A stretch of 50,551 nucleotides of DNA from contig CBFHJX010000001.1 of assembly GCA_965656285.1 (NCBI GenBank), forward strand, positions 1 through 50,551, given 5' to 3'. The translations under genes and the position numbers were made by a program. Below, piece after piece: positions 2-19,601 of the stretch (positions within the stretch are counted from its first letter, which is position 1; every line of letters starts with the position of its first letter). Source of the stretch: Luminiphilus sp. (GTDB taxonomy: Bacteria; Pseudomonadota; Gammaproteobacteria; Pseudomonadales; Halieaceae). The notes under the pieces were generated by a model. It worked only from the letters and a program-made list of their open reading frames with translations. It was not told where the DNA came from and did no database searches.

Positions 2-1525
2 ATTGGGATAGTAGCGTCAGATGGAGCGGCCAACGCGTCACTATTGGTCTCGGTTACAGTCACTGATGTCGAAGAGGATTCTGGACAAGGTGGTGGCCCT
101 GTTAGTGGAAAAGTCGTATCGGGCACCTACTTAAGTCAGGCGTCGGTATTTCAAGATGTCGATGGCAATGGTTCGAAGGGGGATGATGAGCCAGGTGCAC
201 TGACTGACGCCAATGGACAATTCGCATTCGACGTCGATGATTATTTGGCAGGACCCGTCCTGTCGCTCGGGGGCGTTGACCCAGCCTCGGGTTCAAGCTA
301 TGGCGCCGCATACTTATTAAATGGGGGTGTGCCGACGTCCGACCCATTAATCATCTCGCCAATAGGCTCTTTGCTCATTTCGAGTGTTCAGCAGGGCGGC
401 ACATTTGCCAGTGATGTAATACAAGCACTGGACATCACGGAGTCTGCAGCAACGCGAGATCCGCTCATGGCTCTTTCTGAAAACGCCTCAGGTGCAGGGC
501 CTATTGCTTTGAATCACGCGCAGTTATCGGTACTCACTGCGTCGCTGTCCGCTATAACGGGATTACCAACGACATCCGTGGAGGAAGCGATTGCGGTCCG
601 TGGTGCAGCGACGTCTACACGACTTGTGTTCTCCAGTGTCCAGTTGTTTGCTGACGTAGCATCTGATTTGAACGACCCAGTTCTAAATACATTCATTACG
701 GAAATAACCGGATCAGTCGGGCGCTTTTTGCAGCAGATGAGCGCAGCCGATATCAACACGCTAGGTCAATTTGTCGATGTCGGCCTGCGCGTGGTTGTGG
801 CGGATTCAGTAGCAATTGCGGGTGGCGATACCACGCTTGCTGAGGACTACCGTACCGACGTTTTAGGGGTCGTTGAAACTAACTCATCGCTGGTTAACCT
901 TAGTTCGCAGTTGCCTGATTTTAACGAGTATAGCTATCGAATTTCGGAGGGCGCCGCGAGCGGGTTCCAATATACGATAGACGGTGCAGACGCCACTGCA
1001 ACGGATATTATTGTTTATGCTCGCGTAGGCGACACGATTCGATTCGATGATGTCGTTGCACTGACTTCACACCCCTTCAGATTGGGCCGCAGTCCAGAGT
1101 CATCGCCTTTGTCGGAGGCCGACGGTGTCATTATTGACAACAATCACCATGTGGCGCTGGTGGTTAATGAGGATACGCCTAAAACGATATACCCGTACTG
1201 CCAAGTCCACAGCAATATGTTCGACCGAGGTAGGATTGAAATTGTGGAGACATTTGAGGGGCTGGAGTTTCCAGGCTTAGCAAACACGCCGCTACAGGTC
1301 CGAGGAGTTGTCGATACGGGTAAATATGACGGTGCAGCTGGGTACACGTATGACGTGTATCTCACACAAGAAGCGGCAGAGACTGCCTCAAGTCAAACTA
1401 TCCATCAGCATCGTATGAAGGATATGCCGTCAATTCCATTCTTCATGCCCGGTGGTCAGGGCTATCATGGTGCGGTTGAGGCTGCGGCTAATGCGGAATT
1501 CAAGCCGATAAGCGTTCAAGATTAG
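2..1525 (+). CDS. C-terminal part of a large secreted/surface protein (cadherin-like repeat end, Ca-binding-like DxDGNG motif, cupredoxin-like module); 5'-truncated by window edge
   Basis: Frame is open from base 2 (IGIVASDGAANASLLVSVTVTDVEE, typical end of a cadherin/Ig-like repeat), so the TTG at 44 is not the start. Contains 'VFQDVDGNGSKGDDEP...TDANGQF' and H...C-x2-H-x2-M (SHPF...YPYCQVHSNM). Confidence 0.7.
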   Translation: MGIVASDGAANASLLVSVTVTDVEEDSGQGGGPVSGKVVSGTYLSQASVFQDVDGNGSKGDDEPGALTDANGQFAFDVDDYLAGPVLSLGGVDPASGSSYGAAYLLNGGVPTSDPLIISPIGSLLISSVQQGGTFASDVIQALDITESAATRDPLMALSENASGAGPIALNHAQLSVLTASLSAITGLPTTSVEEAIAVRGAATSTRLVFSSVQLFADVASDLNDPVLNTFITEITGSVGRFLQQMSAADINTLGQFVDVGLRVVVADSVAIAGGDTTLAEDYRTDVLGVVETNSSLVNLSSQLPDFNEYSYRISEGAASGFQYTIDGADATATDIIVYARVGDTIRFDDVVALTSHPFRLGRSPESSPLSEADGVIIDNNHHVALVVNEDTPKTIYPYCQVHSNMFDRGRIEIVETFEGLEFPGLANTPLQVRGVVDTGKYDGAAGYTYDVYLTQEAAETASSQTIHQHRMKDMPSIPFFMPGGQGYHGAVEAAANAEFKPISVQD

Positions 1526-1537
1526 ATCGATTTTCAA

Positions 1538-2620
1538 TCAATCCAGGGTGGGTCGTGTCGCCAGCCCTGGAATCTCACAAAATATATCAGCCTCGACCTT
1601 GACGCTGACTGCGGCGTTCGCGTGAGCCCCGACACACCACGAGGGCATGACCATTGAGTAAAGTCCGCTGCCGCCCGCTTGCAAAATTAAAATCTGGTCA
1701 GGGCTTCTGAAGGCCATTCGCCGCTGAGGGTCGGGCCCTGCAAACTGTCCAAACAGCCGTTTCACCACATCACCCTCCACAAAACAACGCGCGTATAGCT
1801 CTTGAGCAATGTCCTCTCGCGTGAGGCCTGCCGCATGCAAAATTGCGCTGTGTTCTGGGTTAAGTACGACCGTGGCATGCCCACCGGTGAGGGTGCCGTT
1901 ATTGCTGGGCGGGTTGGCTAACCCCATGGCCAGCAGTTCAAGCAGTGCTTTGTAGCTCTCGGGGTCATTGCCGTCGCCGGAGAAAATAACCGAGTGGGGT
2001 GCTTCCGCACCGAGAACCGTCACCACGCTGTCATCTGGATCAAATCCACGCCCCACATGCAGTGGTGTGAATGGACTGTTTTCTTCATCTTCGGCCAAGC
2101 AATAGGTGAATTTCCCAGGGTGGCCGAGGAGCGCCATGTCAGAGCTGCCCGGTTGTGCTTTACCAATATTGATCATCGTCAGTCGTAACGCACGGCCGAT
2201 CGATGCATTGGCGCGATGACCAGGACCTAGAGCCCCTGTGCCCGACGCAATGGGTCCGCAGCTGTGTCGTGCGGGCCCGTTAACAATCACGAGCGGTGCT
2301 GTGCAATGTGTGGTCGCTTGCATTTCTGTGAGGTCAAAGACGGGATCAATGACCGCTTTCACAGCGGCGAGCACCACAGGCATGTAGTCAGGCAGACAGC
2401 CCGCCATGACAGCCGCAATGGCGACGTTTTCGACAGTGGCAATGCCGTGGCCCGGGCCCATAGTGCCGAGCACCATGTCACCGTCTTGCCCCGAGGCGAG
2501 GACCATACGCGACACGCGTTCCGCAGTCGGAATAACGACCGGCAAACCGTCGGTACTGCCGTTCCGGTGCAGGTCTTCAAGTGCTTGTGCCTCATCGAGC
2601 GCCGACAGCAATTCAGTCAC
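1538..2620 (-). CDS. Conserved uncharacterised protein (TDGLPVV.PT family), partner of the UGSC selenoprotein
   Basis: About 360-aa ORF with motifs STDGLPVVIPT, AVMAGC.P, VNGP, RANASIGRALRL, GHPGKF and AEDEE. A GTG at 2620 with GAGG upstream overlaps the end of the upstream gene, so it is favoured over the TTG at 2632. Confidence 0.8.
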   Translation of the reverse strand: MTELLSALDEAQALEDLHRNGSTDGLPVVIPTAERVSRMVLASGQDGDMVLGTMGPGHGIATVENVAIAAVMAGCLPDYMPVVLAAVKAVIDPVFDLTEMQATTHCTAPLVIVNGPARHSCGPIASGTGALGPGHRANASIGRALRLTMINIGKAQPGSSDMALLGHPGKFTYCLAEDEENSPFTPLHVGRGFDPDDSVVTVLGAEAPHSVIFSGDGNDPESYKALLELLAMGLANPPSNNGTLTGGHATVVLNPEHSAILHAAGLTREDIAQELYARCFVEGDVVKRLFGQFAGPDPQRRMAFRSPDQILILQAGGSGLYSMVMPSWCVGAHANAAVSVKVEADIFCEIPGLATRPTLD

Positions 2621-3149
2621 TCTGAGCCTCAAGTGCCAAGAGAATGTTGTTTGCGATCGACTCGGCGACGCGAGTCAGATTTGCTGATCCCGTCCCAGCT
2701 ACCGGATGCGGTAACTCGACCCGAGGCACCGTAGACATACCCAGAGACTGAGCCACAAAGTTGCCTTGTGACCAGAATTCTTCAGTCACCAGTGCTACCG
2801 CGGGAATGCCAAGTTTGGCGAGGTTAATGCCGTCACGCACGGTGCCGGTAGTGCAGGAGCCTCAGTGGCCGTAAGCCGCAATCACGCCCACGCAATCGCC
2901 ACCAATCTCACCCAACAGTTTTTCGGGCGCGGGAATCGTAGCATTGCCCTTGTTGTAGGTTTTAAGGGAAATGCCCGGGCGTAAACGGCTCAGAGCTGCA
3001 CCGACCTCATCAAGGAACTCGACAGAATCTGGGAAACCATTGGCAAGTAAGCCGATGGTTGTTGCGCTTGCACCGTCGACTTGGACAGACAAGTCATAGG
3101 GTGTGTCTTCAATGCCGACAGATGCGTTTGGATTTAAATACTCGATCAT
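2613..3149 (-). CDS. UGSC-motif selenoprotein (178 aa, Sec at residue 96; UxxC redox motif)
   Basis: Reverse strand reads GCT TAC GGC CAC TGA GGC TCC TGC ACT ACC GGC ACC GTG CGT GAC = A-Y-G-H-U-G-S-C-T-T-G-T-V-R-D. The TGA (2862-2864) joins ORFs 2862-3149 and 2613-2840 in one frame. Confidence 0.88.
2830..2842 (-). promoter_or_regulatory. Candidate bacterial SECIS apical hairpin
   Basis: mRNA CCGU-GCGUG-ACGG: a 4-bp stem whose G-initiated loop starts 23 nt after the UGA. This fits the bacterial SECIS spacing model. The lower stem was not verified by folding software. Confidence 0.5.
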
Positions 3150-3281
3150 TCAGTTGCCCCTTGCGAGGGTACTGTTATCGCTAACAACCCCCTCGCGTGT
3201 CAAGCCTGCACGATGGTTATTTGATTGGCTCGGGGGTCCATTAGCCGCGTACACTAGACGGCCGCAAAGAGAGGTATCGAT

Positions 3282-4172
3282 ATGGAACGAATTCAGCTGG
3301 CAGAAGACCTTCAGTTTAGTCGTCTGGTTTATGGCCTGTGGCGTCTGGCTGACGATTCGAATACGTCGATAAAACACGTCGAGGCCAAGATTAACGCGGC
3401 GCTTGACCAGGGCATCACCACCTTTGATCAAGCAGATATCTACGGTGGCTATACCGCCGAGGGTGTGATGGGTGCGGCACTTAAGCAAAATCCTGCGCTG
3501 CGTCAGCGTATGGAAATTGTGACCAAGTGTGACATTGTGATCGACGCGGGTCGGCACTCAGGTGCGCGCGTAAAGCACTACGACACCACTGAAAAGCATA
3601 TTCAAGAGAGCGTTAATGCATCGCTTTCGGAGATGGGCATAGAGCACATCGATGTCCTATTGATCCATCGTCCAGACCCGATGATGGATCATCACGAAAC
3701 GGGGGCTGCGCTCGACGGCCTCATTGACTCTGGCAAGGTTCGCGCCGTGGGTGCGTCTAACTTTAGGCCGTGGGATTGGACTCTGCTTCAGTCCGCTATG
3801 CGTCACCCTTTGGTGACGAATCAGATTGAGCTGAGTCTTAAAGCGATCGCACCGTTCACTAACGGAGATCTCGCATTTCACCAGCAGCACGACCACGTGA
3901 TTATGGCGTGGTCGCCGCTGGGCGGTGGCGATCTCATGACGACGGATGGCGAACTGGGCAATCGTCTTGACCGCATTGCGGCTCGATACGGTGCGGACCG
4001 CGCCGCCGTTGCGACCGCCTTTTTGCTTGCGCACCCGGCAGAAATTACGCCGGTATTGGGCACAAACAATCTTGAGCGTATTGGGCAGATCACTGACGCT
4101 CTGACTATCGAACTCGATCGGCAAGATTGGTTCTGGCTCTATGAGTCGGCTTTAGGCCACGAAGTACCGTAG
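3282..4172 (+). CDS. Aldo/keto reductase (YdhF-like oxidoreductase)
   Basis: Motifs GITTFDQADIYG, TKC, DVLLIHRPDP, GKVRAVGASNF, NQIE, AWSPLGGG; GAGG RBS. Confidence 0.92.
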   Translation: MERIQLAEDLQFSRLVYGLWRLADDSNTSIKHVEAKINAALDQGITTFDQADIYGGYTAEGVMGAALKQNPALRQRMEIVTKCDIVIDAGRHSGARVKHYDTTEKHIQESVNASLSEMGIEHIDVLLIHRPDPMMDHHETGAALDGLIDSGKVRAVGASNFRPWDWTLLQSAMRHPLVTNQIELSLKAIAPFTNGDLAFHQQHDHVIMAWSPLGGGDLMTTDGELGNRLDRIAARYGADRAAVATAFLLAHPAEITPVLGTNNLERIGQITDALTIELDRQDWFWLYESALGHEVP

Positions 4173-4197
4173 CGCTACCTGCCGTGCTAGTGACCAC

Positions 4198-4216
4198 AGT
4201 GGACGAGTAGTCCACT
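4198..4216. terminator. Possible bidirectional terminator hairpin between convergent genes
   Basis: AGTGGAC-gagta-GTCCACT, 7-bp stem in the 55-bp gap; no clear U-tract. Confidence 0.3.
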
Positions 4217-4227
4217 CGCAGTGCGCA

Positions 4228-5580
4228 TTATTTAGCCCGGACTAATTTGTAGTTGCGGGCATCGGTGATGAAGTCGGCGTGACCGTAAAGCTTAAGAAGA
4301 CGCGCCAATTTTCGGGTCAGACGACGGTCCAACTTCTCTGCGACGCCGGGAATTTTCATGCCCAGTGAGTAGAGGTTTGAGCTTGCGACGATGGTCGCCA
4401 GGGCACAGGCCGTGGCGACTTTATCGTGCGTTCCATAGTGCACCCCCATTGCCTGGGCTCGTTCAACTTTCCCGTCGCAAAAATGTTGGATTAAGAAGTA
4501 TTTGGAGAAGCCTCGCTCCATCCAACGGTGGAAGCGCCCGGTCAAACTCGGGTCAGTAAACAGTTCTGCACTCATTGTCCCTCTGATGAGTTCGCCGCAG
4601 ATCTCGTCATCGTAGGTCTCGCGCAACGAGAGGGTGCGCGCGGTCATCAGATCAACGATCTCCTGAGGTGTCTCGCCTAAAAGGTCTTCGGGTAAGCCAA
4701 GTAAAAAACAGCGGTAGCGTGCCATTTCAACGCGTGCTCGCTCTGCAGTGGTGAACTGACTTCGCCCATTTGCGAGTAGCTTAAACGACATCAGAAAAAT
4801 GCCAATAAGGCCGGCGGGCATTTGATCAACCTGTGGAATGGGAATGCCATAGGTCGAGACGTCCCACTGACCGCTTCGCATAATATTAAAGCGCACCATT
4901 GAGTGCATGAGCCGAACTTTGGCCGCGGCCTTAAATCCCGGATTAAATCGCTCCATCGCCCCGGGCATGGTTGTTGCCGTAAAAAAGCTTGCTGTTTCAA
5001 ACACGCGACTGACTGATTTTTCATCCGTCAGTGTCCCGGTCATCGTCATTGGAAGCGCCGTATATTTATTCATGAATGTCGCGATAAATGCGCCGCGAAT
5101 GGCAAAGGGGGAAATGGTCCCCAGTGGTATTCGCTCGTGTTTAGCGCCTTCCTCAACCAACGACATATTGACCCAGTCGGGCGTCGCCTCCATGGCATTT
5201 ATAAACCTGACGAGCTCGATGGGCGCGTCTGTGACAGCCTCCACGCCCTCATCGCACGCACGCTCTAGCAGCGTGACCAGGGTCCTAAAGCCGTATTCGG
5301 GGATCAGTGCCGCATAAGCATCCGCCACCTTGTCGCCCATCATGGTGTAATTCTTTATACGGTCTATGAGTTCTGGGTTTTGCAGGACACGCGCCGAGTA
5401 GTCTCGGTGACGTGAGGGGCGCATCGATGCGATGTCAATGTCACCCGCATAGCGCTCGGGAAGCCGGGTAAAGTCGACGTCACCATAAATCGCTGAAATG
5501 AGGGTTTGCTGCTCGACGACGCTTGCGCTAAACCGTGTTTCTCGCTGATGGTTCTCCATGAACGCTCGCTGTTGATTCAT
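4228..5580 (-). CDS. MpaB/DUF2236-family (rubber oxygenase Lcp-like) heme oxygenase
   Basis: GD..AD, P.WVN..LVEEG, R..ET, and KVRLMHSMVR (conserved heme-ligand His), W.....GIPI.Q. Confidence 0.8.
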   Translation of the reverse strand: MNQQRAFMENHQRETRFSASVVEQQTLISAIYGDVDFTRLPERYAGDIDIASMRPSRHRDYSARVLQNPELIDRIKNYTMMGDKVADAYAALIPEYGFRTLVTLLERACDEGVEAVTDAPIELVRFINAMEATPDWVNMSLVEEGAKHERIPLGTISPFAIRGAFIATFMNKYTALPMTMTGTLTDEKSVSRVFETASFFTATTMPGAMERFNPGFKAAAKVRLMHSMVRFNIMRSGQWDVSTYGIPIPQVDQMPAGLIGIFLMSFKLLANGRSQFTTAERARVEMARYRCFLLGLPEDLLGETPQEIVDLMTARTLSLRETYDDEICGELIRGTMSAELFTDPSLTGRFHRWMERGFSKYFLIQHFCDGKVERAQAMGVHYGTHDKVATACALATIVASSNLYSLGMKIPGVAEKLDRRLTRKLARLLKLYGHADFITDARNYKLVRAK

Positions 5581-5747
5581 TCAAGTGTTAGGGAACCTTA
5601 GCGAGTTAGCACCGCTCAGGGCAATGGTTGGGCGAACCTTTCTAACGAGATCCTAGTCAGCGCGGTACAGACCGCGATGATCATCACGCCCCACAGTGGT
5701 AGGACGCGATGAGTCCGGTCGATTAACGCGTTCTGCTCACATCACGT

Positions 5748-6215
5748 TTACTTAACAACCGTTTGTGAGGTGCCCGCACCGCCCTGCAGGGGCGACCAGT
5801 GAGCGGCTTTAACGCGCCATTCACCATCTTCCTTTACAAATGCTTGTGTCACACGCGTACGGTAATTCGGCACCGCAGGCAGGCCTTTGGGCTTCATGTT
5901 GGCCTCTTGATAGTAGTGTGCAATGGCCGCCTGACCTTCAACGAGTACCACTACCTCAATGTGTTTTACCGAACCCGAAAACGCATCAAAGTCCGCGCTA
6001 TCGCTCTCTCGCGTTAAGCGATTGAGTAATCCGCCGCTTGAGAAAAATTCCATCGATCCAGATTTAGATATGCGCATCGGGTCTTGTGAGAGTTTTTGAT
6101 TGCTGTAGGCAATGTTGTTTTTAACCACGTCCTGAATTTCTTGCGCTGTGTCAGCCCAAGCGCTCCCGGTCGATGCCATCAGTGCTAGTGCGGTACTGCA
6201 AAGTAGAGTTCTCAT
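5748..6215 (-). CDS. Secreted NTF2/SnoaL-like (DUF4440-type) protein
   Basis: ATG at 6215 with AGGAG RBS; signal peptide MRTLLCSTALALMASTGSAWA; C-terminal RVTQAFVKEDGEWRVKAAHWSP typical of the NTF2-like fold. Confidence 0.75.
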   Translation of the reverse strand: MRTLLCSTALALMASTGSAWADTAQEIQDVVKNNIAYSNQKLSQDPMRISKSGSMEFFSSGGLLNRLTRESDSADFDAFSGSVKHIEVVVLVEGQAAIAHYYQEANMKPKGLPAVPNYRTRVTQAFVKEDGEWRVKAAHWSPLQGGAGTSQTVVK

Positions 6216-6601
6216 TTTGTACTCCTGGTTCGTTAAAAGGCGGTCACAGGGGCGTGGTGCGGCCACACTGCTTATGTGGAGTGTAGACCTGCGAACCGTA
6301 AATACGAGTTTAATGTTGCGGCATTAGAGATGGACGCTGAATAGATCGCAATTCGAGCGACGTGTAATCAACATGAGTAGTCGTGAGAGGCGATGTCTAA
6401 CTGATTTCTCCGAGAACTCGACGGATAATAATTCCTTCTGCCTCTATAAACGCACGTGGTATACAGACAGGCGTTAACCCTATTTTAAAAGTCATAGGAG
6501 GTTGAGATGAGGCTTTTTCACATCGAGGGCGCCACGGGTTCCCCACTCAGTCCAGTGGCGGTATTTTGATTAGGCCAGTATGTGGCTTGGGAGCTCCTCA
6601 T

Positions 6602-8275
6602 ATGATGGTTCTATTAAAAAGGCTGGGCTTGGTTTTGGTGTTGGCATTGAGTCCGGCTTTAACCGCGCACGCCGACGCAAGTGATACGCGCGCCGTATTG
6701 ATGCCTGAGTCCGGCACTTACTCACGGACAATTTCAACTCAGAGTCCCGACGCCCAGGCTTTCTTTGATCAAGGTCTGCGTCTTGCTTGGGGCTTTTACT
6801 TTCCCGAGTCGATCGCGTCCTATCAGCAGGCGTCACTGTTTGATCCCGACCATCCGATGCCGTATTGGGGTATTGCACATGCGGCGGGTCCAAACCCCAA
6901 CTCGCGTTACGCACAGATGCCCGACGATCCTCAGGGCGCAGGCTTGGCGGCGATTGAGGCGGCATTGGCGCGGATTGATCGCGCAACACCCATGGAGGCG
7001 GCGTTAATTCGCGCGCTTTACGTGTTTTATGACGCGGATAGTATTTCAGACGCGGGTGAGCGAGACCGCGCGTACCTCGCCCAGATGCGTGCACTGAATA
7101 AAAAGCACCCCGACGATCCTGACGTCACGGCGCTTTACGCGGGAAGCTTTATGTCGATTCGGCGCTGGGATTATTGGGACAAGCGCGGTCGGGCGAAGGG
7201 CGAAACGCTGGCGGTGGCCGAGGCGTTAGAGCGTGTGATCAGCAAAGGCGGAGTGCATCCGGGTGTTTACCATCTTCACATTCACCTCATTGAAGCCTCG
7301 CTTGAACCGGAGCGCGCCATGGTTTCGGCGAATGCGCTCGAGGCAACACTGCCTATAGGCGGACATGTGGTCCACATGCCTGCGCATATTTTTGTCCGTG
7401 TTGGTGACTACCAAAGAGCCATCGATAACAACCTTAGATCACTGGCCGTAGACCAGCGTTTTGCTGAGCATTGGGGGGAGCTGCCGTTACCCACTATTGG
7501 CACTTATCCGTTATCGCATAAAATTCACGCCGGACATGCGTTGGACTTTGTGCGTTATGCAGCCACGATGCAGGGCAGTTCTGAACTGGCCATCAGATCC
7601 GCCAAGCAGATGGCGTCAGCGATCAAGTCCCACAGAACCCCCATGGGCCGGATGCAGAAGCGCCTTGCTGCACCGTGGGTAACGCTGAAAATCTTTGGTC
7701 AGTGGGATGAATTGCTGGCAGTTGAGCCGCTTCAAAAGTCGACCCCCTACCTGGCCGGTGTTCTTGCTTATGTTCAGGGAAGTGCTCATGCAGCGAAGGG
7801 TTCGCTTGACGATGCTGAAAAGCAACTGGCAGCGATCCGTTTGATTGCCGAGTCACCGGACGTCTCTGTCAACCGAGCCGGTGCGACGGCGACTGCGGAG
7901 CTTCTTGCTCTTGCAGCACATGCGCTCGATGGCGAAATTAAGATGGCGAGAGGGGATATTACGGCTGCGATTGAGGCATTCGAGAAAGGGGTGGCGCTAG
8001 AAGACACCAACAACTACACCGAACCCCCCGACTGGCCTCAGTCAATGCGGCTTTACTTGGGAACGGCGTTACTGACGGCGCAGCGCTTTGAGGAGGCTGA
8101 AGCGGTTTTCAGACGGGACCTCGTCTGGCATCAAAATAACGGGTGGTCGTTGTTTGGTCTGATGCAGGCGCTCGAGGCGCAGGGGAGGACAAAGGACGCC
8201 GCCACGATTCGAGAACAATGGTCTTCGGTGTGGTCTCATGCTGATGTAGCGCTATCAATGCCGGTTCTGCTCTGA
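6602..8275 (+). CDS. Secreted tetratricopeptide-repeat protein with His-rich motifs
   Basis: Signal peptide ending ALTAHA; AQAFFDQGL, TPR-like helices, HPGVYHLHIHLIE, HVVHMPAHIF, NGWSLFGL. Start could be 6566 (TTG), 6602 or 6605. Confidence 0.8.
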   Translation: MMVLLKRLGLVLVLALSPALTAHADASDTRAVLMPESGTYSRTISTQSPDAQAFFDQGLRLAWGFYFPESIASYQQASLFDPDHPMPYWGIAHAAGPNPNSRYAQMPDDPQGAGLAAIEAALARIDRATPMEAALIRALYVFYDADSISDAGERDRAYLAQMRALNKKHPDDPDVTALYAGSFMSIRRWDYWDKRGRAKGETLAVAEALERVISKGGVHPGVYHLHIHLIEASLEPERAMVSANALEATLPIGGHVVHMPAHIFVRVGDYQRAIDNNLRSLAVDQRFAEHWGELPLPTIGTYPLSHKIHAGHALDFVRYAATMQGSSELAIRSAKQMASAIKSHRTPMGRMQKRLAAPWVTLKIFGQWDELLAVEPLQKSTPYLAGVLAYVQGSAHAAKGSLDDAEKQLAAIRLIAESPDVSVNRAGATATAELLALAAHALDGEIKMARGDITAAIEAFEKGVALEDTNNYTEPPDWPQSMRLYLGTALLTAQRFEEAEAVFRRDLVWHQNNGWSLFGLMQALEAQGRTKDAATIREQWSSVWSHADVALSMPVLL

Positions 8276-8544
8276 GCTGACAATGCTGAGCGATGGGCCA
8301 CACCTGGCCTGCGCCGGTTTGGTCATTCAACGCGCCATACTCTGGCGCACGGACTGCTGCAGTTCAACACGGTGAGCTCGCTCTATTGAGCATGCTGAGT
8401 GATCGACCCAAACAAAGGCAATACGGGTAAGTACTGTGGCGAAAAATGTTGGGTGGTGTGCAGTTAGCACTCGTCGTTAACGCTACATTTTTTAAAAAAC
8501 GACCGGATAGTCAAAAGAGCCAAGTGATTAGGAAGGGTTTAGTG

Positions 8545-9444
8545 ATGCGTCACGCAGTGTCGATTTTCTGTTGGATTCTATTGTGTTGCTTTGCTGCGCA
8601 TGCAGGCGCCAGTGATCTTGAGCCGCCCAATATGACGTTTATACCCCTTGATGTTTCGAAGGTGGAGGGCGAAAACACCGAGCAATGGTCGTTCAATGGC
8701 GCTGAGTGGTGGCTCAGGAATACAAACGTCCCTAGTGTGTCGGTCTACCCTGCGACAAACGACAGCCCAACAGGCGCGGCCGTGCTGGTCATACCCGGAG
8801 GCGGCTTTCAGTTTGTGTCGATGTCTAATGAGGGCTGGCCGATAGCAGAGCGACTTGCAGCCCGAGGTATAACGGCTGTCGTTTTGAAGTACAGAACGGT
8901 CCAAACACCGAGAGATGACCAAGAGTTCTTTGAACTCATGGGACGATTATTTTCGGGGCGACTCGATCCCGAACTTCTGAGTGAGCAACGAGCGCGCGCT
9001 GTGTCCGTGGCTAAAGCAGATGCTCAAGGTGCCTTGGTATGGATCAAGGAAAACGCTGAGCAGTACGGAATCGATTCGTCCCGAGTCGGGGTGTTGGGAT
9101 TTTCGGCAGGCGCGATGACTGCAATGGCTGTTGCGCTCGACTCGGACGGCGGTGCTCCACCCGCTTTTCTGGGGGCTATCTATGGCGACCTAGGCTCAGT
9201 TGCCCCGCCTAAAGACCCAATGCCACTTTTTGTGGCCATTGCGTCTGACGACCCACTATTGGGGCATCAAGGTTTTGGATTAATTGAGGACTGGCACGGC
9301 GCTGGTGGTTCGACGGAACTCCATTGGTATCAGGGAGGTGGTCATGGTTTTGGCAGTTTCTCAAAAGGGACGACGAGCGATCGATGGTTTGATCAATTTA
9401 CAGTGTGGTTGATCGCAGAGGGCTTTACGACGCAGGCGATGTAA
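8545..9444 (+). CDS. Secreted alpha/beta hydrolase (esterase, BD-FAE/xylan-esterase-like)
   Basis: PGGGF oxyanion motif, GFSAG nucleophile, DD and GGHGFG triad residues; signal peptide from ATG 8545 with AGGAAG RBS. Confidence 0.85.
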   Translation: MRHAVSIFCWILLCCFAAHAGASDLEPPNMTFIPLDVSKVEGENTEQWSFNGAEWWLRNTNVPSVSVYPATNDSPTGAAVLVIPGGGFQFVSMSNEGWPIAERLAARGITAVVLKYRTVQTPRDDQEFFELMGRLFSGRLDPELLSEQRARAVSVAKADAQGALVWIKENAEQYGIDSSRVGVLGFSAGAMTAMAVALDSDGGAPPAFLGAIYGDLGSVAPPKDPMPLFVAIASDDPLLGHQGFGLIEDWHGAGGSTELHWYQGGGHGFGSFSKGTTSDRWFDQFTVWLIAEGFTTQAM

Positions 9445-9754
9445 TTGTTCTGTGGACTCGCTCCACCGACAGTGCAATATTGACCGGGATGAACGCCCGA
9501 GACGCGCTTAAAGACTATGTACAGGTTGCCCGTTGCCCCACATCTGTGCGCCGACTCACCGACAGGCAGGGCGTCATGCAGCAGCAGTAACCCCTATTGA
9601 GAGCTTACGGAACGTGCCTCCTAGATGCGCCGAGCTACGGCCATTTTGTGAGCCCTAAAGTGACGCTTGCTCCCCTTATAAGGTAAAAACGAAAACCGAA
9701 TAGTGACTGAAAGGCTTTATTTCATCGTGGCTTGTTATCCTTGGGTCTCAACGA

Positions 9755-10720
9755 ATGTATGGGAGCACGTCGATGCGGCACAAAGATTTGGCAGCCGTTT
9801 TTATCTGGCTGGTTGGGAGCACGTTTTATTCATCTGCATTGTTAGCTGATTCGCACTTCGAATCGGTGACAAAAGACGAGGCCTTTAGGGCGCAACTCAA
9901 TTTGTCTAAAGGCGCCGCATTTGTGGCGCTAAAGCACGGATATACCTACTACCGAACGGCGAATATTGACGATTGTGAAATACCCGATGTGCTGGTTCAT
10001 GGGTTTTCTGTACCGTCCTATATATGGGATCCGACCTTCGATTTCTTGGCATCACAGGGTCGCTGTGTCGTGACGCTGGACCTTTATGGACGTGGTTTTT
10101 CCGATAACCCCGATGTTGAATACACCGATGCACTCTTTGCTCATCAAGTCATCGGACTCCTCGATCACTTGGGGTTGGAGAGGGCGTCGTTGTTTGGGCT
10201 ATCTAACGGGGGGCGCGTGGTCAGCCAAGTGGCGGGCTTGGCACCCCACCGAATAGAGCGCCTGATCTACGTCGCCTCTTCAGGGTTTGGTGATACGCAC
10301 CGAGCGAAGGATACTCGCGTCACCAAGACAGAGATCGACGAACTCATTGCCCAATACCCCAACCTTCCCGCGGGACAACTGTCCGACTTCAAAGACCCGT
10401 CACAATTTCAAGATTGGGACGATAAGTATGCGGAGTTACTGGCTCACAAGGGTTTCGCCCGAGCGCTGATCTCGACGCGAAAGAATCACGACTCAACGGA
10501 GCTGGACCGAATTCATGCGATGCTTCAAGACTCCGATATTCCCGTCGTGACCATTTGGGGTGACAGCGATACCGTGGTGGTTTATGAGCGCTTTGCCCAG
10601 AAGATAGCGCAGCTACTGCCCAAGCGGGTTGAACACTTCGTCCCCAATTCCGGTCATTTACCTCATATGGAAAATCGGATCGTCTTCGAGGCGATTCTTG
10701 AGAAAAGTCTTGGGTTGTAA
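9755..10720 (+). CDS. Alpha/beta fold hydrolase
   Basis: VHGF, DLYGRGFS, GLSNGG nucleophile elbow, WGDSD, SGHLPHME; probable signal peptide (start may be 9773). Confidence 0.88.
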   Translation: MYGSTSMRHKDLAAVFIWLVGSTFYSSALLADSHFESVTKDEAFRAQLNLSKGAAFVALKHGYTYYRTANIDDCEIPDVLVHGFSVPSYIWDPTFDFLASQGRCVVTLDLYGRGFSDNPDVEYTDALFAHQVIGLLDHLGLERASLFGLSNGGRVVSQVAGLAPHRIERLIYVASSGFGDTHRAKDTRVTKTEIDELIAQYPNLPAGQLSDFKDPSQFQDWDDKYAELLAHKGFARALISTRKNHDSTELDRIHAMLQDSDIPVVTIWGDSDTVVVYERFAQKIAQLLPKRVEHFVPNSGHLPHMENRIVFEAILEKSLGL

Positions 10721-10791
10721 CGTCGCCTTTGCGCCTGAGCCGTGTCGGCGCCGACCAAGCGCAGTCATGAAAAAAATAGAGGTCGCAGAAC

Positions 10792-12201
10792 ATGATTAAT
10801 ACCACTCATTTACACCGGTGCGTGATCAGCAGAGTGATCTTTGCTGCGGCCGCTTCGTGTTTGCCGGTGCTGGCCGATGAACCTGGCTCATCACAGCCCA
10901 TCGCATTTGTTGGGGGGCAGCTGTTGGACGGCTACGAAGCGCCGGCTATTCCAGACGGCGTCATTGTCTTTGAGGGGGGGGTCATTACCCAGCTGGGTCC
11001 GAAGGCAGAGGTCGACATTCCCCGCGAGGCTGAAATTATTGATCTCGGTGGACACACGATCCTTCCTGGCCTCATCGATAACCATGTGCATGTTGACCTT
11101 ATTGGTCATGGCTCTTACGAGCGCTACTACGAATTTCTCGGCGGTACGAAGCGCTTACTCGATGTGATGCCAATTGCGGCCAAGCAAATGCTGCGTGCGG
11201 GGGTGACCACGGCGCTTGATCTCGGCGCCCCGTTTGAAATTCTGACGTTGCGCGAACGCATTGAGCGGGGAGTAATTCCCGGACCTGAATTGCTGATCTC
11301 TGGACCTTGGATTACGCGCGTTCAATACGACACGATTCCTGACAGTTACGAGGTGGTGATTACGTCGCCTCAAGTGGCGGCACAAAAGACGCTGGAATTA
11401 ATTGATCGCGGCTCGGACGTCATTAAGACGTGGGAGGGTCTTACTCAGGAGGATTATATCGCCGTTGTAAATGCCGCGCATTCGCGGGGTGTCAAAGTGC
11501 ATGCCCATTTGTACGAGCCTCGAGCCATCGAAATGGCCATGAATGCCGGTGTCGATGTCTTTCAACATGTGGGTTCGGCAGGGAACCCGCCATACGACGA
11601 AACCCTGATTAATGCGATTGCACATCGTGAAATTCCGATCGTTCAAACCATTTCCCACAGGGTCTGGGTTTACCCGTCAACACAGGCGTTTCCGTCGCGA
11701 CTGAGCCGAACGGAATACCGAGAGGACATGCCTGACGACATTTACCAAGAGTTTATGGCCTCATTTGAGAACTTCCATCAGCTACCGTATTTCCGTAATG
11801 CGGCGACAGAGATACGGAACTCGACTCAGTCAGCGGGGCAATTTATCCGCGCGGGAGCTCGCATAGGCGTGGGTACCGATGCAGCAAGTCCCTTAAACAT
11901 GCATTTGGAAGCCATGTGGCGTGAAATGTCGGCCCTCGTCGACAGTGGTATGACGCCGTTGCAAGTCATTTCAGCCGCCACTAAAACGAATGCAGAAATA
12001 CTGGGGTTGTTTGGGGATCGAGGCAGCCTTGAGGTCGGCAAGCGAGCGGACATGCTTATTGTTCAGGGTAATCCCCTCGAAGACATTAACACCCTCGGTA
12101 ACGTGGCCGTTGTCGTGAAGCAGGGTGACCTTTGGTTTACCGAAGGCAGCACCGTAGCGCCTGCAGCCCGCGCTAACTTCTTCGGCGGCGGGTCACGCTA
12201 G
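10792..12201 (+). CDS. Secreted amidohydrolase family protein
   Basis: PGLIDNHVH metal motif, AGVTT, IK, HAH, GTDA, GSLEVGKRAD; GAGG RBS. Confidence 0.9.
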   Translation: MINTTHLHRCVISRVIFAAAASCLPVLADEPGSSQPIAFVGGQLLDGYEAPAIPDGVIVFEGGVITQLGPKAEVDIPREAEIIDLGGHTILPGLIDNHVHVDLIGHGSYERYYEFLGGTKRLLDVMPIAAKQMLRAGVTTALDLGAPFEILTLRERIERGVIPGPELLISGPWITRVQYDTIPDSYEVVITSPQVAAQKTLELIDRGSDVIKTWEGLTQEDYIAVVNAAHSRGVKVHAHLYEPRAIEMAMNAGVDVFQHVGSAGNPPYDETLINAIAHREIPIVQTISHRVWVYPSTQAFPSRLSRTEYREDMPDDIYQEFMASFENFHQLPYFRNAATEIRNSTQSAGQFIRAGARIGVGTDAASPLNMHLEAMWREMSALVDSGMTPLQVISAATKTNAEILGLFGDRGSLEVGKRADMLIVQGNPLEDINTLGNVAVVVKQGDLWFTEGSTVAPAARANFFGGGSR

Positions 12202-12212
12202 GGCGCCTTAGG

Positions 12213-13382
12213 CTAAATACTAATGTCGTCCCGGTTGTAATCGTGCAGGTCATGACGCGCTGCCTCATTCCAGGCAAACGATAAGTTTTTGTCTTCAAAG
12301 GGTTGATATCGGTACGGCTCCTCGTCGGTAAAACGTGCTTGACGCGCGGCAATCGCGTAACCCAAGACCCGTGATCGACGAGCAATAATATCCTCGTCGA
12401 ACACTTGTGCGTCACTGTGAATCCCGCCGCCTTTGACACCCAGTACTGAAGAGCGCTTGTGGAAGCCAAAGTTAACTGTAAGTCGCGGTTCAAAGCCGCT
12501 GTTGGGGAAGGATCCGTGCAACGCTTGGCGGTTACACATCACCACGTCTCCGCGATCGCAGACAAGCGGTACGGCGCCCTCTATTCGCTCGCTTTGCGAC
12601 TGACTGACAAGCGCGCTGATATCGATTTTGCCCAGTTTGTGGCTGCCGGGAAGGACCCACACGCCGTTAACGGCCGTGCTCCCGTAGAGCTGAGCCATGA
12701 AGTTAAAACCGTGAATATTTTCATCAAAATCGGGGCTGTCCCAGTGTGTGACGCCGTCTTGGTGCCAAGAGACGGCCGCACCAATTCCCGGTTCCTTAAT
12801 GAACAAGGCTTCATTGAACGGCGCAAAGTCTTTGCCATTGATCGTCTCAGCAACCATGAGAAGCTGAGGGTGCGCATAGGTGCGAAGACAGGCGTCGGAG
12901 AAGCGCAGTGAGCCTAAGAGTATGAATGGAGAGGCGGCGGGCGTCTCTGAGCCGGCCTCGGGTTCGAACATCTTGACTTGGTGTCGCCCGTTAGCCAGTT
13001 GCGTTCCGCCCAGTGGGTCGCCTAAGGGTTTTGACCAGATCAAGTGCGGTGTTTGTGAGTTACTGCCGAGTGCTGGATTACCTTGCGCATCAACCGAACT
13101 GTCGGGAGACGTGGGAAAGGAGGCCTTCATCGCGATCATGTCAGCTTCTATATCTTGACACTCCTCTTCCGCTAAGACCCCGGTGAAAACATAGAATCCG
13201 TATGTCGAATAGGCATCGAGAATGTGTTGTGCAAGACGTCCAGTATTATCAAACTCGATGGGTCCGCGGTTTCCAAGCGCCAAGGCGCTGCGCTGACCCT
13301 CGATTAAGTAGTCACGCATTGCGTCAGCCTGTTCGCCGTAGCGAGCGGCGCAAGCGTCGATGGATTTAGATATATCGTGCAT
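12213..13382 (-). CDS. Phytanoyl-CoA dioxygenase (PhyH) family Fe(II)/2OG oxygenase
   Basis: WHQD, NG..VLPGSH, LHGSFPN...R motifs; ATG 13382 with GGAG RBS. Confidence 0.88.
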   Translation of the reverse strand: MHDISKSIDACAARYGEQADAMRDYLIEGQRSALALGNRGPIEFDNTGRLAQHILDAYSTYGFYVFTGVLAEEECQDIEADMIAMKASFPTSPDSSVDAQGNPALGSNSQTPHLIWSKPLGDPLGGTQLANGRHQVKMFEPEAGSETPAASPFILLGSLRFSDACLRTYAHPQLLMVAETINGKDFAPFNEALFIKEPGIGAAVSWHQDGVTHWDSPDFDENIHGFNFMAQLYGSTAVNGVWVLPGSHKLGKIDISALVSQSQSERIEGAVPLVCDRGDVVMCNRQALHGSFPNSGFEPRLTVNFGFHKRSSVLGVKGGGIHSDAQVFDEDIIARRSRVLGYAIAARQARFTDEEPYRYQPFEDKNLSFAWNEAARHDLHDYNRDDISI

Positions 13383-13430
13383 CGTGGTCTCCAACTTTAT
13401 GTCGCGTATATTTATCGCTTAGCGTTCTAT

Positions 13431-14561
13431 CTAACCGCCACTCAGTTCTTCATGAAGATTTTTATGGAAACGCACGATCGCCTGCTCAAAGAGACCAAAC
13501 GTTAAGTGCGAGTTGGCGGATGTCGTGACGGTTTCCTGTATGTCTCTTGCTGCTGCACGGTCTTCTTCTTGGCCCGACTGATTGACGAAATCAACATCCT
13601 TCATTGCCGCCTCATGGCTAATTTCTTTACCTGATGTGGCTCTGTGCTTAATGTAATAAGAGAACATCTGTGTACGGGTGGGCGACAGTGGCTCGATAAT
13701 CGTGACACTGGTGTGTTTTGATAAAACGGAAACACTGACGTTAGGGAATAGGTGGTAGACCAGGGTTGCGAAACCCTCTATCTTGCGCTCATTGACGGCG
13801 ATCGATCGTAAGTTTTCGATGCGTTTGAACGGGTACACGACACGCGAGTTTTGACCAAAGGACTCGATGACGTTGATGTTATCCAGTCCAAAGGGGTAGA
13901 AGCTCTCGCGGTGCAATGACTTGATATGGTAACCCTCAAGCAGGGTCTCGGTCAGTAGCTTCCAATTGGCATCATCCACTGTATTACTCTGATGGATCAG
14001 GGGTTGTGTTGAATCGAAAAAGTCCAGCGCAGTGTCTAGTGTGTTCAGTTTTGGACTTCCTTCCTGTTGTACGTAGACGAGCCCTCCCTTCTCGAGTGCA
14101 AAGAGCTCTTTGAGGCCCGCCGTTTCTTGCTCTAAGTCAGGAAATGCGGCGGCCCCTGGAACGCCGCGAAGTGTTCCATCTAAATTGTAAGTCCAGCCGT
14201 GGTAGGGGCAGGAGAACGTGCGCGCACACCCCTGACCTGAGGCGACTTTCATCCCACGATGGCGGCAAGCATTAATAAATGCGCGCACCCTCAAGTCGTT
14301 GTCTCGGACGACAAGAAGTGGTGTACCCGCCGCGGTACGAGATACGAAGCTGCCCGCCTCTGGAATAGCTGCTGAGGGGCAAAAGACCACGGGACGCTCG
14401 CGTAGGAGAGCAATTTCTTTCTCGAACCTTTCCTGACGAACGTAATGACTCACGGGCTCACGCCACGGGGCGTCACCGAGGTCGGTGGTTTTGTTATCGA
14501 TGTGCTCAAATACACGATCAATAACTTCATTGTGTGTCAGGAGCCCTGCATTGTTGTCCAT
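13431..14561 (-). CDS. Rieske non-heme iron ring-hydroxylating oxygenase, alpha subunit
   Basis: Rieske ligands CRHRG...CPYHGW; NWK...EGYHIKSLH mononuclear Fe site; late ED. Confidence 0.92.
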   Translation of the reverse strand: MDNNAGLLTHNEVIDRVFEHIDNKTTDLGDAPWREPVSHYVRQERFEKEIALLRERPVVFCPSAAIPEAGSFVSRTAAGTPLLVVRDNDLRVRAFINACRHRGMKVASGQGCARTFSCPYHGWTYNLDGTLRGVPGAAAFPDLEQETAGLKELFALEKGGLVYVQQEGSPKLNTLDTALDFFDSTQPLIHQSNTVDDANWKLLTETLLEGYHIKSLHRESFYPFGLDNINVIESFGQNSRVVYPFKRIENLRSIAVNERKIEGFATLVYHLFPNVSVSVLSKHTSVTIIEPLSPTRTQMFSYYIKHRATSGKEISHEAAMKDVDFVNQSGQEEDRAAARDIQETVTTSANSHLTFGLFEQAIVRFHKNLHEELSGG

Positions 14562-14794
14562 GGTGACTGCTCTCTATTCTCAGTGTTTAACTGCCCCCGA
14601 AAGGGGTCTCGGGCCGTAATCCATGCGCATCCAATGAGTCGACGCAGGCATTTATCGGCTGTTCTCTGGCACGGCCGCTGCGGCCAGAGCCTGGACTGTT
14701 TATCAAGTATTGATAAACAGCACGTCTTTTATCCACTTAGTACGCTCAATCGCTTGTGGCCTTTGAAATCTGGGGTAAGTAACGCCGTTTACCA

Positions 14795-15814
14795 TTAAAT
14801 AGGATCATGAGCTTTTAGGAGTTGCTTGCCATGGTTCTCGCCCGTGTAGAGGCGCCGCAGCGTATTCGGGATGTTCTCGAAACCTTCCTGCACATCGACC
14901 TGGAACTGCAAGTCTCCAGACATTACCCAGCCTAGAAGATCTTGAATCGCTTCCATCGCTCGGGGCATGTAATCGAGAATAATGAATCCCTCCATGCGAC
15001 TGCGATTAGTCACTAGATTCATTAAGTTTGAGGGTCCAGGAATAGGCGCTTCGGCGTTGTAGCCTGAAATACCGCCACAGAGGACCACGCGTGAATACAA
15101 GTCCAAATGGTTCAAGGCGGCCTCGAGTGTCTCTCCACCGACGTTGTCGAAAAATACGTTCCACTTGTTGGGACAAGCGGCTGCAATTTGACCGTCAAGG
15201 TCGCCCTGTTTGTAATCAATGGCGGCGTCGAGACCAGCGACCTCGGTGAGCCATCGGCACTTCTCAGGACCACCGGCAATACCGACCACCCGGCATCCTT
15301 TAATCTTAGCAATCTGACTGGCAACAGAGCCGGTGGCGCCCGCGGCTCCCGAGACAAGTACGGTATCACCAGCCTGAGGTTGTCCGAGCTCGAGTAATCC
15401 AAAATACGCGGTGATACCCGTGAGGCCGATGACTGAGAGCATCATCTCTGGTGTCACGCCTTCAGGGATTTTAGTGACTCCAGTGACGCCTTCTCCTGGA
15501 GTAACCACGGCGTAGTCTTGCCAGCCCCCCATGGTTTGCACCAGCTCTCCCTCAGCGAACTCAGGGTGGCGTGACTGGACAATTTGGGCGACGGTTCCTG
15601 AGCGCATGACCTCACCTATGGCGACAGGTGGAAGATAGCTTGGTCGATCAACCATCCAGTTTCGCTGTGTTGGATCGAACGAAAAGTAGAGGTTTTTGAT
15701 GAGTATTTGGTTGTCACCCACCACAGGAATAGAACGTTCCACAAGGTCAAAGTTGGACGCCCCGATCATTCCCTCGGGTCTCTTAGCGAGCAGCCATTGG
15801 CGGTTGTGGTTCAT
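14795..15814 (-). CDS. NADP-dependent oxidoreductase (prostaglandin reductase/CurA-like MDR)
   Basis: LAKRPEG, SFDP, TAYFGL, VSGAAGATGS, FFDNVGG, CGGISGYN, GENHGK. Confidence 0.92.
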   Translation of the reverse strand: MNHNRQWLLAKRPEGMIGASNFDLVERSIPVVGDNQILIKNLYFSFDPTQRNWMVDRPSYLPPVAIGEVMRSGTVAQIVQSRHPEFAEGELVQTMGGWQDYAVVTPGEGVTGVTKIPEGVTPEMMLSVIGLTGITAYFGLLELGQPQAGDTVLVSGAAGATGSVASQIAKIKGCRVVGIAGGPEKCRWLTEVAGLDAAIDYKQGDLDGQIAAACPNKWNVFFDNVGGETLEAALNHLDLYSRVVLCGGISGYNAEAPIPGPSNLMNLVTNRSRMEGFIILDYMPRAMEAIQDLLGWVMSGDLQFQVDVQEGFENIPNTLRRLYTGENHGKQLLKAHDPI

Positions 15815-15865
15815 CGTGTGTTCCTTTTGTTTGTGCGCTGCGTGTTCAATTTATGTGGTTTGTAC

Positions 15866-16456: not shown

Positions 16457-16475
16457 TGTGCGACTCTGCTCTTGT

Positions 16476-16505
16476 ACTTATTATTGACGGTCATAAATAA
16501 TAAGT
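16476..16505. promoter_or_regulatory. Inverted repeat, probable TetR operator
   Basis: ACTTATTATT-N10-AATAATAAGT, perfect 10-bp arms with an inner TGAC-G-GTCA, 20 bp upstream of the tetR start. Confidence 0.6.
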
Positions 16506-16779
16506 TTAGTTCACCGAGCTTGTTGCGTAAATAAAACTTGCAGTCGACCTTGTAGAACCGTCACACGGCGTTTTTGTTAAATTTGTTGTCAATGGATTGC
16601 GCGTTGCCGCTTACTGTGGCGCGCATTATTTGTGTGGGAGATGTCAGCGAATGACGTCTCGATTGAGCGACGGCGAGCACGACATTACAAAGTTACGCTT
16701 GCCGGCCCTCGGCGTTCCTAACCCGAACGGAAACTGTGCCACTATGCCGGTGTGAGAAAGAGGAAAAAGAGAGATCGTC

Positions 16780-17874: not shown

Positions 17875-17946
17875 ACGTCAAAAGCTGAGTGCAGGCCTTT
17901 CACTTCAGAGCAGTGAGTCGCCTGTAAAGTCGGCTGACAATGACCC

Positions 17947-19558: not shown

Positions 19559-19601
19559 GGGCGCGATAGTCTTCACTGCACCCTAGTGAATAGCCATCAT
19601 T

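What the first reader, a model, noticed from the sequence alone, without database searches (positions are those of the whole stretch)
2613..3149. Hidden selenoprotein: two called ORFs are one UGA-recoded UGSC (UxxC) protein
Seen: ORFs 2862-3149 and 2613-2840 share a frame and are separated only by one TGA (2862-2864) plus 7 sense codons, reading YGH-[TGA]-GSCTTGTVRD. Established: U-x-x-C is the thioredoxin-like selenoprotein redox motif, and UGSC-containing proteins are a known but functionally uncharacterised selenoprotein family from marine/environmental sequence. Inference: this is an intact 178-aa Sec redox enzyme that standard callers split or mark as a pseudogene.
Basis: partly seen in the sequence, partly recalled or inferred. 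Interest (0 to 1): 0.85.

Follow-up and report, generated by a model that had tools for sequence, protein, structure and literature searches.

The report
UGSC selenoprotein coupled to unnamed partner
Two called ORFs share one frame across a TGA that is conserved in relatives and almost certainly encodes selenocysteine, giving a member of the known but unexplained UGSC family; its predicted fold is flavodoxin-like rather than thioredoxin-like, and it likely works with the unnamed protein encoded right behind it as a selenium-dependent reductase of unknown substrate.

Summary
Observation confirmed. 3149→2613 (−) is one 178-codon frame with a single internal TGA (codon 96, U-G-S-C); read through, it scores 132.7 bits on Pfam UGSC (cut-off 25).

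Sec recoding is very well supported:
- TGA96 is kept in 13 of 13 full-length congener orthologues.
- 36 of 39 database homologues spanning the column have Cys.
- Both halves are under purifying selection.
- Codons 101-105 are frozen at DNA level over a SECIS-like hairpin.
- The genome has selA, a split selB and tRNA-Sec; selD maps to an assembly gap.

The 'thioredoxin-like' label fails. The AlphaFold model is a flavodoxin-like (βα)5 domain, and profiles link residues 77-159 to the Sec-bearing end of GrdB/PrdB-like proteins (probability 85%; redoxin control 4%).

This is the 'Unknown_1' family: UGSC accompanies it in 72 of 80 loci, the two are fused in both orders, and it has no fold match.

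Likely a two-subunit selenium-dependent reductase; binding and substrate are untested. The family has been in print since 2007, and this scan has seen it before on other DNA (223 notes, ≥190 genomes). New member of a known kind.

The parts
2613..3149 (-). UGSC-family selenoprotein gene, 178 aa (ATG at 3149, terminal TGA 2613-2615)
   Evidence: Pfam PF24696 132.7 bits; NF041046 102.7 bits, below its 125 cut-off; orthologues
2862..2864 (-). in-frame TGA, codon 96, inferred selenocysteine
   Evidence: TGA in 14 of 14 genus sequences; Cys in 36 of 39 spanning homologues; spanned unchanged by contigs of two public runs
2853..2864 (-). U96-G-S-C99 motif, at the start of the helix after strand 3 in the model
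   Evidence: C96, G97, S98, C99, T100 invariant in alignment A2
2830..2848 (-). candidate bacterial SECIS: 6-bp stem with one G·A mismatch, 5-nt loop (2837-2841) with GU at loop positions 2-3, loop 20 nt after the UGA
   Evidence: codons 101-105 nucleotide-invariant; 132 of 132 cells paired, one compensatory change in 22 sequences; thermodynamically weak
3157..3162 (-). purine-rich ribosome-binding-site-like stretch 7 nt before the ATG
   Evidence: seen in the sequence; purine-rich stretches lie upstream of most orthologue starts; function not tested
1538..2620 (-). partner gene ('Unknown_1' family), 360 aa, GTG start overlapping the UGSC stop by 8 nt; no Pfam or NCBIfam family
   Evidence: start codon at the same place in 14 of 14 genus sequences; matches the Unknown_1 block of PMC2398784 Fig. 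S1A

Best explanation
The two ORFs lie in one frame across a TGA conserved in relatives that almost certainly encodes selenocysteine, and the 178-aa UGSC protein likely forms a two-subunit selenium-dependent reductase with the unnamed 360-aa protein whose gene overlaps its stop codon. Shown: gene structure, family match, conservation, selA/selB/selC in the genome, gene pairing and fusions. Strongly inferred (about 0.97): SelB and tRNA-Sec decode UGA96 with the hairpin at 2830-2848. Predicted: a flavodoxin-like fold with U96/C99 at a helix start, remotely homologous to the Sec-bearing end of GrdB/PrdB. Inferred by analogy to glycine and proline reductase protein B: the partner binds and activates a small organic substrate, the Sec96 selenolate attacks it, Cys99 resolves the intermediate to a selenenyl-sulfide, and thioredoxin/thioredoxin reductase re-reduce it. 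The substrate is not identified; neighbourhoods lean weakly to organic-acid or acyl-CoA catabolism.
For: Recoding: (pN/pS 0.127/0.726 before and 0.122/0.58 after the TGA; the terminal stop varies TGA 9, TAA 4, TAG 1 while codon 96 never does). SECIS: 5 of 9 aa-invariant degenerate codons in 97-108 are nucleotide-invariant against 0 of 55 elsewhere; in 48 distant UGSC genes a hairpin at the same place shows 30 cells with compensatory change against 11.8 in shuffles. Pairing: 72 of 80 partner loci hold a UGSC gene; 37 of 61 long partner homologues carry a UGSC domain or half, N- or C-terminal. Reductant: partner fusions to redoxin (3 of 61), thioredoxin-reductase-like (1) and FtrB (1) domains. 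GrdB/PrdB link: hhalign probability 84.6%, 76 columns, U-x-x-C in register; 71% with the motif masked; best of 8 control families 8.5%; 3 of 9 natural homologues hit GrdB/GrdF models at E 4.6e-5 to 8e-3.
Against: selD is not in the assembly. The hairpin is weak (−6.0 kcal/mol alone, pair probabilities about 0.1, z about 0.5), and its register in this clade differs from the family register (59.7% paired). The first profile comparison with shallow alignments was not significant (probability 0.3%, E 0.23). The window's own protein hits no GrdB model at E≤0.01, and the link covers only residues 77-159. The partner shows no likeness to genes around GrdB/PrdB-like loci and matches no Pfam family, so the GrdE/PrdA analogy has no support from homology. 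8 of 80 partner loci lack UGSC, 4 of them with full 5-kb flanks. Reductant fusions are rare, and this partner has none.
Confidence: 0.5

Rival explanations
1. UGSC is an electron-shuttle or repair subunit. It does not touch the substrate but keeps a catalytic Cys or metal site of the partner (C75, C174, D24, E177, H257) reduced or activated; the partner is the enzyme.
For: The partner has many conserved polar residues and two conserved Cys. It also occurs fused to redoxin, TrxR-like and FtrB domains. 8 of 80 partner loci have no UGSC nearby.
Against: The GrdB/PrdB relationship points to a Sec that reacts with substrate. The fold is not that of a typical shuttle thioredoxin.
Confidence: 0.3
2. 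[quoted passage not shown]
For: U-x-x-C at a helix N-terminus; classed with Trx-like selenoproteins in PMC2398784 and PMC13188914.
Against: Strict βα alternation in the model; redoxin profile probability 3.65% and 0.82%; near-constant pairing and fusion with the partner.
Confidence: 0.12
3. The pair is non-reductive: U/C-x-x-C and partner residues bind a metal or Fe-S cluster for a hydratase, lyase or transferase step.
For: Weak whole-length fold echo of the partner in class I fumarate hydratase (Z 4.5, rmsd 5.1, 190 aligned; Foldseek E≥3.8e-3); one fusion to CoA-transferase III.
Against: These scores are at background level; the fusion partners are mostly redox domains.
Confidence: 0.06
4. 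The TGA is a real stop (pseudogene or natural split), a sequencing error, or a genome-wide TGA reassignment.
For: selD not found in G000; one homologue shows Trp at the column (P0002).
Against: TGA96 is conserved in 14 of 14 with equal purifying selection on both sides. It is seen in two public runs. TGA ends 279 of 827 long ORFs in G000. selD lies in a gap between two G000 contig ends.
Confidence: 0.02

Closest known systems
UGSC family (seleno)protein, Pfam PF24696 / NCBIfam NF041046; 'UGSC-containing protein' of Zhang and Gladyshev (PMC1976440, PMC2398784)
   Same: U-G-S-C motif, full-length profile match, in-frame UGA, aquatic habitat, link to 'Unknown_1' (fusion in Fig. S1A of PMC2398784).
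   Different: Belongs to a Y-G-H-U-G-S-C subgroup that scores under the NCBIfam cut-off (102.7 vs 125 bits) and uses a shifted SECIS register. Here the partner is a separate, overlapping gene. The published 'likely Trx-like fold' is not borne out by the model.
Selenoprotein B of glycine/sarcosine/betaine reductase (GrdB/GrdF; TIGR01917, TIGR01918, NF040794) and D-proline reductase PrdB (Pfam GRDB, PF07355)
   Same: Remote profile homology over the Sec-bearing strand-helix-strand-helix-strand unit, with U-x-x-C in register.
   Different: No PF07355 match in G000. Similarity is limited to about 76 columns. No second C-x-x-C (GrdB has U-x-x-C-x-x-C per PMC13188914). The partner is not detectably related to genes near GrdB/PrdB-like loci. 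The host is a marine Luminiphilus-like gammaproteobacterium, not a Stickland anaerobe.
Thioredoxin-fold U-x-x-C selenoproteins (Trx-like, Prx-like, DsbA-like)
   Same: U-x-x-C at the start of a helix; likely selenenyl-sulfide cycle.
   Different: Different predicted topology and motif position; no profile similarity.

Membership tests
UGSC family (PF24696 / NF041046) | Pfam gathering score 25 bits over the domain | tested here: met
   132.7 bits, profile 16-170 of 172
UGSC family (PF24696 / NF041046) | NCBIfam equivalog cut-off 125 bits | tested here: not met
   102.7 bits, E 1.7e-29, profile 2-146 of 147; five close Cys homologues also fall short at 91-107 bits, so the subgroup lies outside the strict equivalog
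UGSC family (PF24696 / NF041046) | (U/C)-G-S-C motif at the conserved column | tested here: met
Bacterial selenoprotein gene | conserved in-frame UGA aligned to Cys, with conservation on both sides | tested here: met
Bacterial selenoprotein gene | SECIS geometry: 3-9 nt loop, G in first two loop positions, 4-16 bp stem, 16-37 nt from UGA (PMC13188914) | tested here: met
   5-nt loop, G second, 6 bp, 20 nt
Bacterial selenoprotein gene | SECIS stability of -7.5 kcal/mol or lower | tested here: inconclusive
   -6.0 for the hairpin alone, -9.8 with a lower stem, tied with another fold; pair probabilities about 0.1
Bacterial selenoprotein gene | selA, selB, selC in the genome | tested here: met
   selA over cut-off; tRNA-Sec with UCA anticodon; selB in two pieces at contig ends, neither over cut-off, whole in 5 of 5 congeners checked
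Bacterial selenoprotein gene | selD in the genome | tested here: inconclusive
   not found in the 79% complete assembly; in G015 it lies between stretches matching the ends of G000 contigs C64 and C202; 30 of 36 congeners have it
Bacterial selenoprotein gene | selenium in the protein | not testable with these tools
   needs 75Se labelling or mass spectrometry
Thioredoxin fold | Trx topology: motif after the first core strand, and a beta-hairpin in the C-terminal half (definition recalled) | tested here: not met
   model has five alternating strand-helix units with the motif after strand 3 (pLDDT 93)
Thioredoxin fold | structural match to solved thioredoxins | tested here: inconclusive
   the rows shown are flavodoxin-like or Rossmann-like; an unlisted family is not excluded
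GrdB/PrdB selenoprotein B (PF07355, TIGR01918) | score over the family cut-off | tested here: not met
   no hit for the window protein; best homologue 16.2 bits vs 65.45 for TIGR01918
GrdB/PrdB selenoprotein B (PF07355, TIGR01918) | homologous Sec-bearing region | tested here: met
   probability 84.6%, 71% with motif masked, controls 8.5% or less; the shallow first try failed
GrdB/PrdB selenoprotein B (PF07355, TIGR01918) | pyruvoyl proprotein partner GrdE/PrdA (recalled) | tested here: not met
   the partner matches no Pfam family and no ORF in 39 GrdB/PrdB-like loci

The most novel reading that the evidence does not exclude
UGSC and Unknown_1 form a widespread, uncharacterised selenoenzyme in which a GrdB-type selenol works with a partner of unmatched fold in place of the pyruvoyl subunit, carrying glycine-reductase-like bond cleavage into aquatic heterotrophs. 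The overlapping start of the partner gene would also tie partner synthesis to UGA read-through, and so to selenium supply.
Probability: 0.3. Interest if true: 0.65.

Novelty: new member of a known kind. Interest (0 to 1): 0.3.

Why it matters
The gene itself is ordinary for selenium specialists: UGSC was among the most abundant marine selenoprotein families in 2008 (255 sequences, PMC2398784) and has Pfam and NCBIfam models. What is still open is its function. The model corrects the published Trx-like guess, links the Sec site to GrdB/PrdB, and points to a large unnamed partner family (4,566 clusters at 50% identity) with no fold match. A single-copy, two-gene unit like this one is a simple test case. 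The same reading has been reached repeatedly elsewhere in this scan, so this window adds one more instance.

Tried and rejected
- Sequence searches of the PDB with UGSC, its alignment, the partner, its alignment and PrdB-like proteins found nothing significant.
- No thioredoxin appears among the rows shown; this absence excludes nothing.
- Partner fold searches: no Foldseek match at E≤0.001; best VIA Z 5.1. The fumarate hydratase, barbiturase and capsid rows were treated as background.
- ESM Atlas gave only unnamed clusters for the partner and no usable hit for a Cys homologue with UGSC clusters left out.
- The first UGSC vs PrdB-like comparison (37 vs 7 sequences) was not significant. In the deeper one, 4 full-length GrdB frames were dropped because my motif search missed them and one GrdB locus was not recovered, so the template is 24 PrdB-like plus 1 GrdB-like sequence.
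- MFE folding did not single out the SECIS, and 14 congeners gave no covariation.
- A motif survey for other selenoproteins in G000 was too noisy to use.
- The promoter/terminator scan was at chance level.
- Neighbour families in 80 loci are generic catabolic families without a background count, so they name no substrate: SDR 16 loci, luciferase-like 15, CoA-transferase III 15, enoyl-CoA hydratase 11, TctC 11.
- RNA-library contigs cover parts of both genes but cannot show transcription or co-transcription.
- No complex model was obtained, so binding of the two proteins is untested.
- Genome-wide TGA=Trp/Gly was rejected.

Full report
OBSERVATION. window:2613-3149 on the minus strand is one frame of 178 sense codons broken only by TGA at codon 96 (2862-2864), reading AYGH-TGA-GSCTTGTVRD. 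A standard ORF finder splits it into 95 and 75 aa. The halves match consecutive parts of Pfam UGSC, and the read-through scores 132.7 bits against a cut-off of 25. NCBIfam NF041046 gives 102.7 bits, below its 125 cut-off. Contigs of a DNA run and of an RNA run span the codon unchanged (4 runs laid of 24 listed). The genome G000 is 1.83 Mb, 79% complete. The closest named partner locus is a Luminiphilus sp. MAG at 88% identity, so the host is likely a marine Halieaceae-type gammaproteobacterium.

IS THE TGA SELENOCYSTEINE? Of 36 other genomes of the genus, 14 have a match: 13 full-length orthologues (67-96% identity), each with one TGA, and one partial match at a contig end. The TGA is at codon 96 in all 14 full-length sequences including the window's, whereas the terminal stop varies (TGA 9, TAA 4, TAG 1). 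Mean pN/pS against the window is 0.127/0.726 for codons 1-95 and 0.122/0.58 for 97-174. Among the best 120 of 322 database homologues, 39 span the column (36 Cys, 1 Trp, 1 Thr, 1 gap), 79 end exactly at AYGH, and 2 diverge earlier. The single Trp is probably a TGA translated under another code (inference). TGA is a normal stop in G000, ending 279 of 827 ORFs of 300 codons or more.

SEC MACHINERY. G000 has selA over cut-off, tRNA-Sec with a UCA anticodon, and selB in two pieces at the ends of contigs C131 and C211; selB is over cut-off in 5 of 5 congeners checked. selD was not found. In the closest complete relative, G015, selD lies in an 8-kb stretch bounded by DNA matching the ends of G000 contigs C64 and C202, which marks an assembly gap. 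30 of 36 congeners have selD, including 11 of the 13 with the full-length gene; the other two are 72% and 61% complete.

SECIS. Among amino-acid-invariant codons with four or more synonyms, 5 of 9 in codons 97-108 (exactly 101-105) are nucleotide-invariant across the 14 sequences, against 0 of 55 elsewhere, although synonymous sites are near saturation (kin are not independent). This stretch forms a 6-bp hairpin (2830-2848) with a 5-nt loop, G at loop position 2, 20 nt after the UGA, which fits the consensus geometry quoted in PMC13188914 (passages read). In 22 sequences of the subgroup all 132 cells pair, with one compensatory change. In 48 more distant UGSC genes a hairpin at the same place, in a shifted register, shows 30 doubly changed cells against 11.8 in shuffles; that register fits this subgroup poorly (59.7%). 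Against it: the hairpin is thermodynamically weak (−6.0 kcal/mol alone, pair probabilities about 0.1), and the structures were read off these same sequences.

FOLD. AlphaFold2 on 37 sequences gives pLDDT 93.4 and five alternating strand-helix units, with U96-x-x-C99 at the start of the helix after strand 3. Foldseek's top rows are flavodiiron cores, flavodoxins, type II dehydroquinases and azoreductases (best E 1.5e-4, TM at most 0.5). VIA-align gives a flat list of flavodoxin- and Rossmann-like domains (best Z 10.9, rmsd 3.5, 124 aligned). This is a flavodoxin-like fold with no specific relative. The definition of the thioredoxin topology is recalled.

RELATION TO GrdB/PrdB. A shallow profile comparison aligned the C-x-x-C motifs but was not significant. 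With 124 UGSC and 25 PF07355-matching sequences, the probability is 84.6% (pairwise E 6.9e-6, residues 77-159). It stays at 71% with the four motif columns masked. Eight control families reach at most 8.5% (redoxins 3.65% and 0.82%), and reversed or shuffled templates score at most 21.6 against 41.5. Independently, 3 of 9 natural UGSC homologues hit TIGR01917, TIGR01918 or NF040794 over the Sec-bearing end, at E 4.6e-5 to 8e-3 and far below cut-off. UGSC thus works like, and is probably remotely related to, the Sec end of protein B, but it is not a member of that family.

PARTNER. The next gene begins at a GTG at 2620 that overlaps the UGSC stop by 8 nt; a start codon sits there in all 14 sequences (GTG 11, ATG 2, TTG 1). 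Its residues from 67 on match the 'Unknown_1' block that PMC2398784 found fused to UGSC. It has no Pfam or NCBIfam family but 4,566 relatives among 50%-identity clusters. Searching from the partner, 72 of 80 loci (the best 80 of 602, from 3 of 64 parts of the collection) hold a UGSC gene; of 80 UGSC hits 74 have TGA, 1 Cys and 5 were not called. Of the 8 loci without, 4 have full 5-kb flanks. Of 61 long partner homologues picked by length from the best 150, 37 carry UGSC sequence (13 whole and N-terminal, 20 N-terminal post-UGA fragments, 4 C-terminal and cut at the UGA), 3 a redoxin, 1 a thioredoxin-reductase-like domain, 1 FtrB, 1 CoA-transferase III and 18 none. The partner model is confident (pLDDT 94.4) but has no fold match. 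Conserved polar residues include D24, C75, Q101, T104, N138, R143, D161, C174, E177 and H257. Both genes are single-copy in the assembly.

MECHANISM. Shown: gene structure, conservation, machinery, pairing. Strongly inferred: Sec at residue 96. Predicted: fold and GrdB/PrdB kinship. Inferred: a two-subunit reductase in which the partner binds a small substrate, Sec96 attacks, Cys99 resolves and the thioredoxin system recycles (0.5). The main rival is that UGSC only feeds electrons to or reactivates the partner (0.3). Binding and substrate are untested. Neighbour families are generic catabolic enzymes. The patchy presence in the genus (13 full-length orthologues in 36 genomes, many incomplete) suggests an accessory function.

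WHAT IS KNOWN. UGSC was listed in 2007 as a selenoprotein of unknown function (PMC1976440, passages), was a major family in the GOS data (PMC2398784), and is still listed without function in 2016, 2022 and 2026 (PMC5029168, PMC9312934, PMC13188914; passages). Searches of the held library for UGSC with selenoprotein (9 papers), with flavodoxin (0), with glycine reductase (6) and for NF041046 (1) showed no statement of a flavodoxin fold or GrdB link in the passages I read. I read UGSC passages in five papers only, the library lacks most subscription journals, and only one supplement was opened. This scan has noted UGSC with its partner many times (223 findings in at least 190 genomes), several with the GrdB resemblance. 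These are unchecked notes, not support.

VERDICT. A real, intact, mis-called selenoprotein gene; a new member of a known kind. Interest 0.3. The open and testable part is the function of the UGSC-partner pair, not this gene's existence.

Noticed in passing
L024, L026, L027 (G060, G004, G028): A second, distant UGSC paralogue (24-26% identity, D-TGA-G-S-C) lies downstream of its own partner copy, in the reverse gene order. In L026 it is followed by a 326-aa ORF that looks like a 3-oxoacyl-ACP synthase III (recalled; no Pfam hit at E 1e-10).
   Followed up: partly
L031-L037 and L039 (8 of the 9 PF07355 matches among 60 congeners): Cys-type PrdB-like domains (C-P-x-C) fused to a C-terminal extension of about 200 aa. 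Most lie near a dioxygenase-like gene (recalled label); in G009 the locus is about 8 kb from the UGSC gene and in G012 about 14 kb.
   Followed up: partly
G004:C1 and G028:C19: selD lies about 17-18 kb from the UGSC-partner unit in these two genomes.
   Followed up: no
window 2827-2867: Metagenome contigs break here, and a 41-base piece has about twice the depth of its flanks, as expected if the post-UGA stretch is shared letter for letter between species.
   Followed up: partly
window 2-1525 (+): 5'-open ORF of 507 aa or more with no Pfam or NCBIfam hit, converging on the partner gene's end with only 12 nt between them; absent from the 80 partner loci.
   Followed up: no
window 3282-21741: A run of catabolic genes: aldo-keto reductase, MpaB/Lcp-like oxygenase, two alpha/beta hydrolases, amidohydrolase, PhyH dioxygenase, Rieske oxygenase, malonyl-CoA decarboxylase, CotH kinase. 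Only the aldo-keto reductase and the 6566 gene also lie beside the unit in the Luminiphilus locus L040.
   Followed up: partly
P0250, P0252, P0257, P0259, P0287, P0313, P0342: Proteins of 616-741 aa with two or more matched stretches of the partner domain, probably tandem duplications.
   Followed up: no
L050:4374-4889: A UGSC gene of this subgroup lies on the opposite strand directly upstream of its partner; inversion or misassembly not checked.
   Followed up: no
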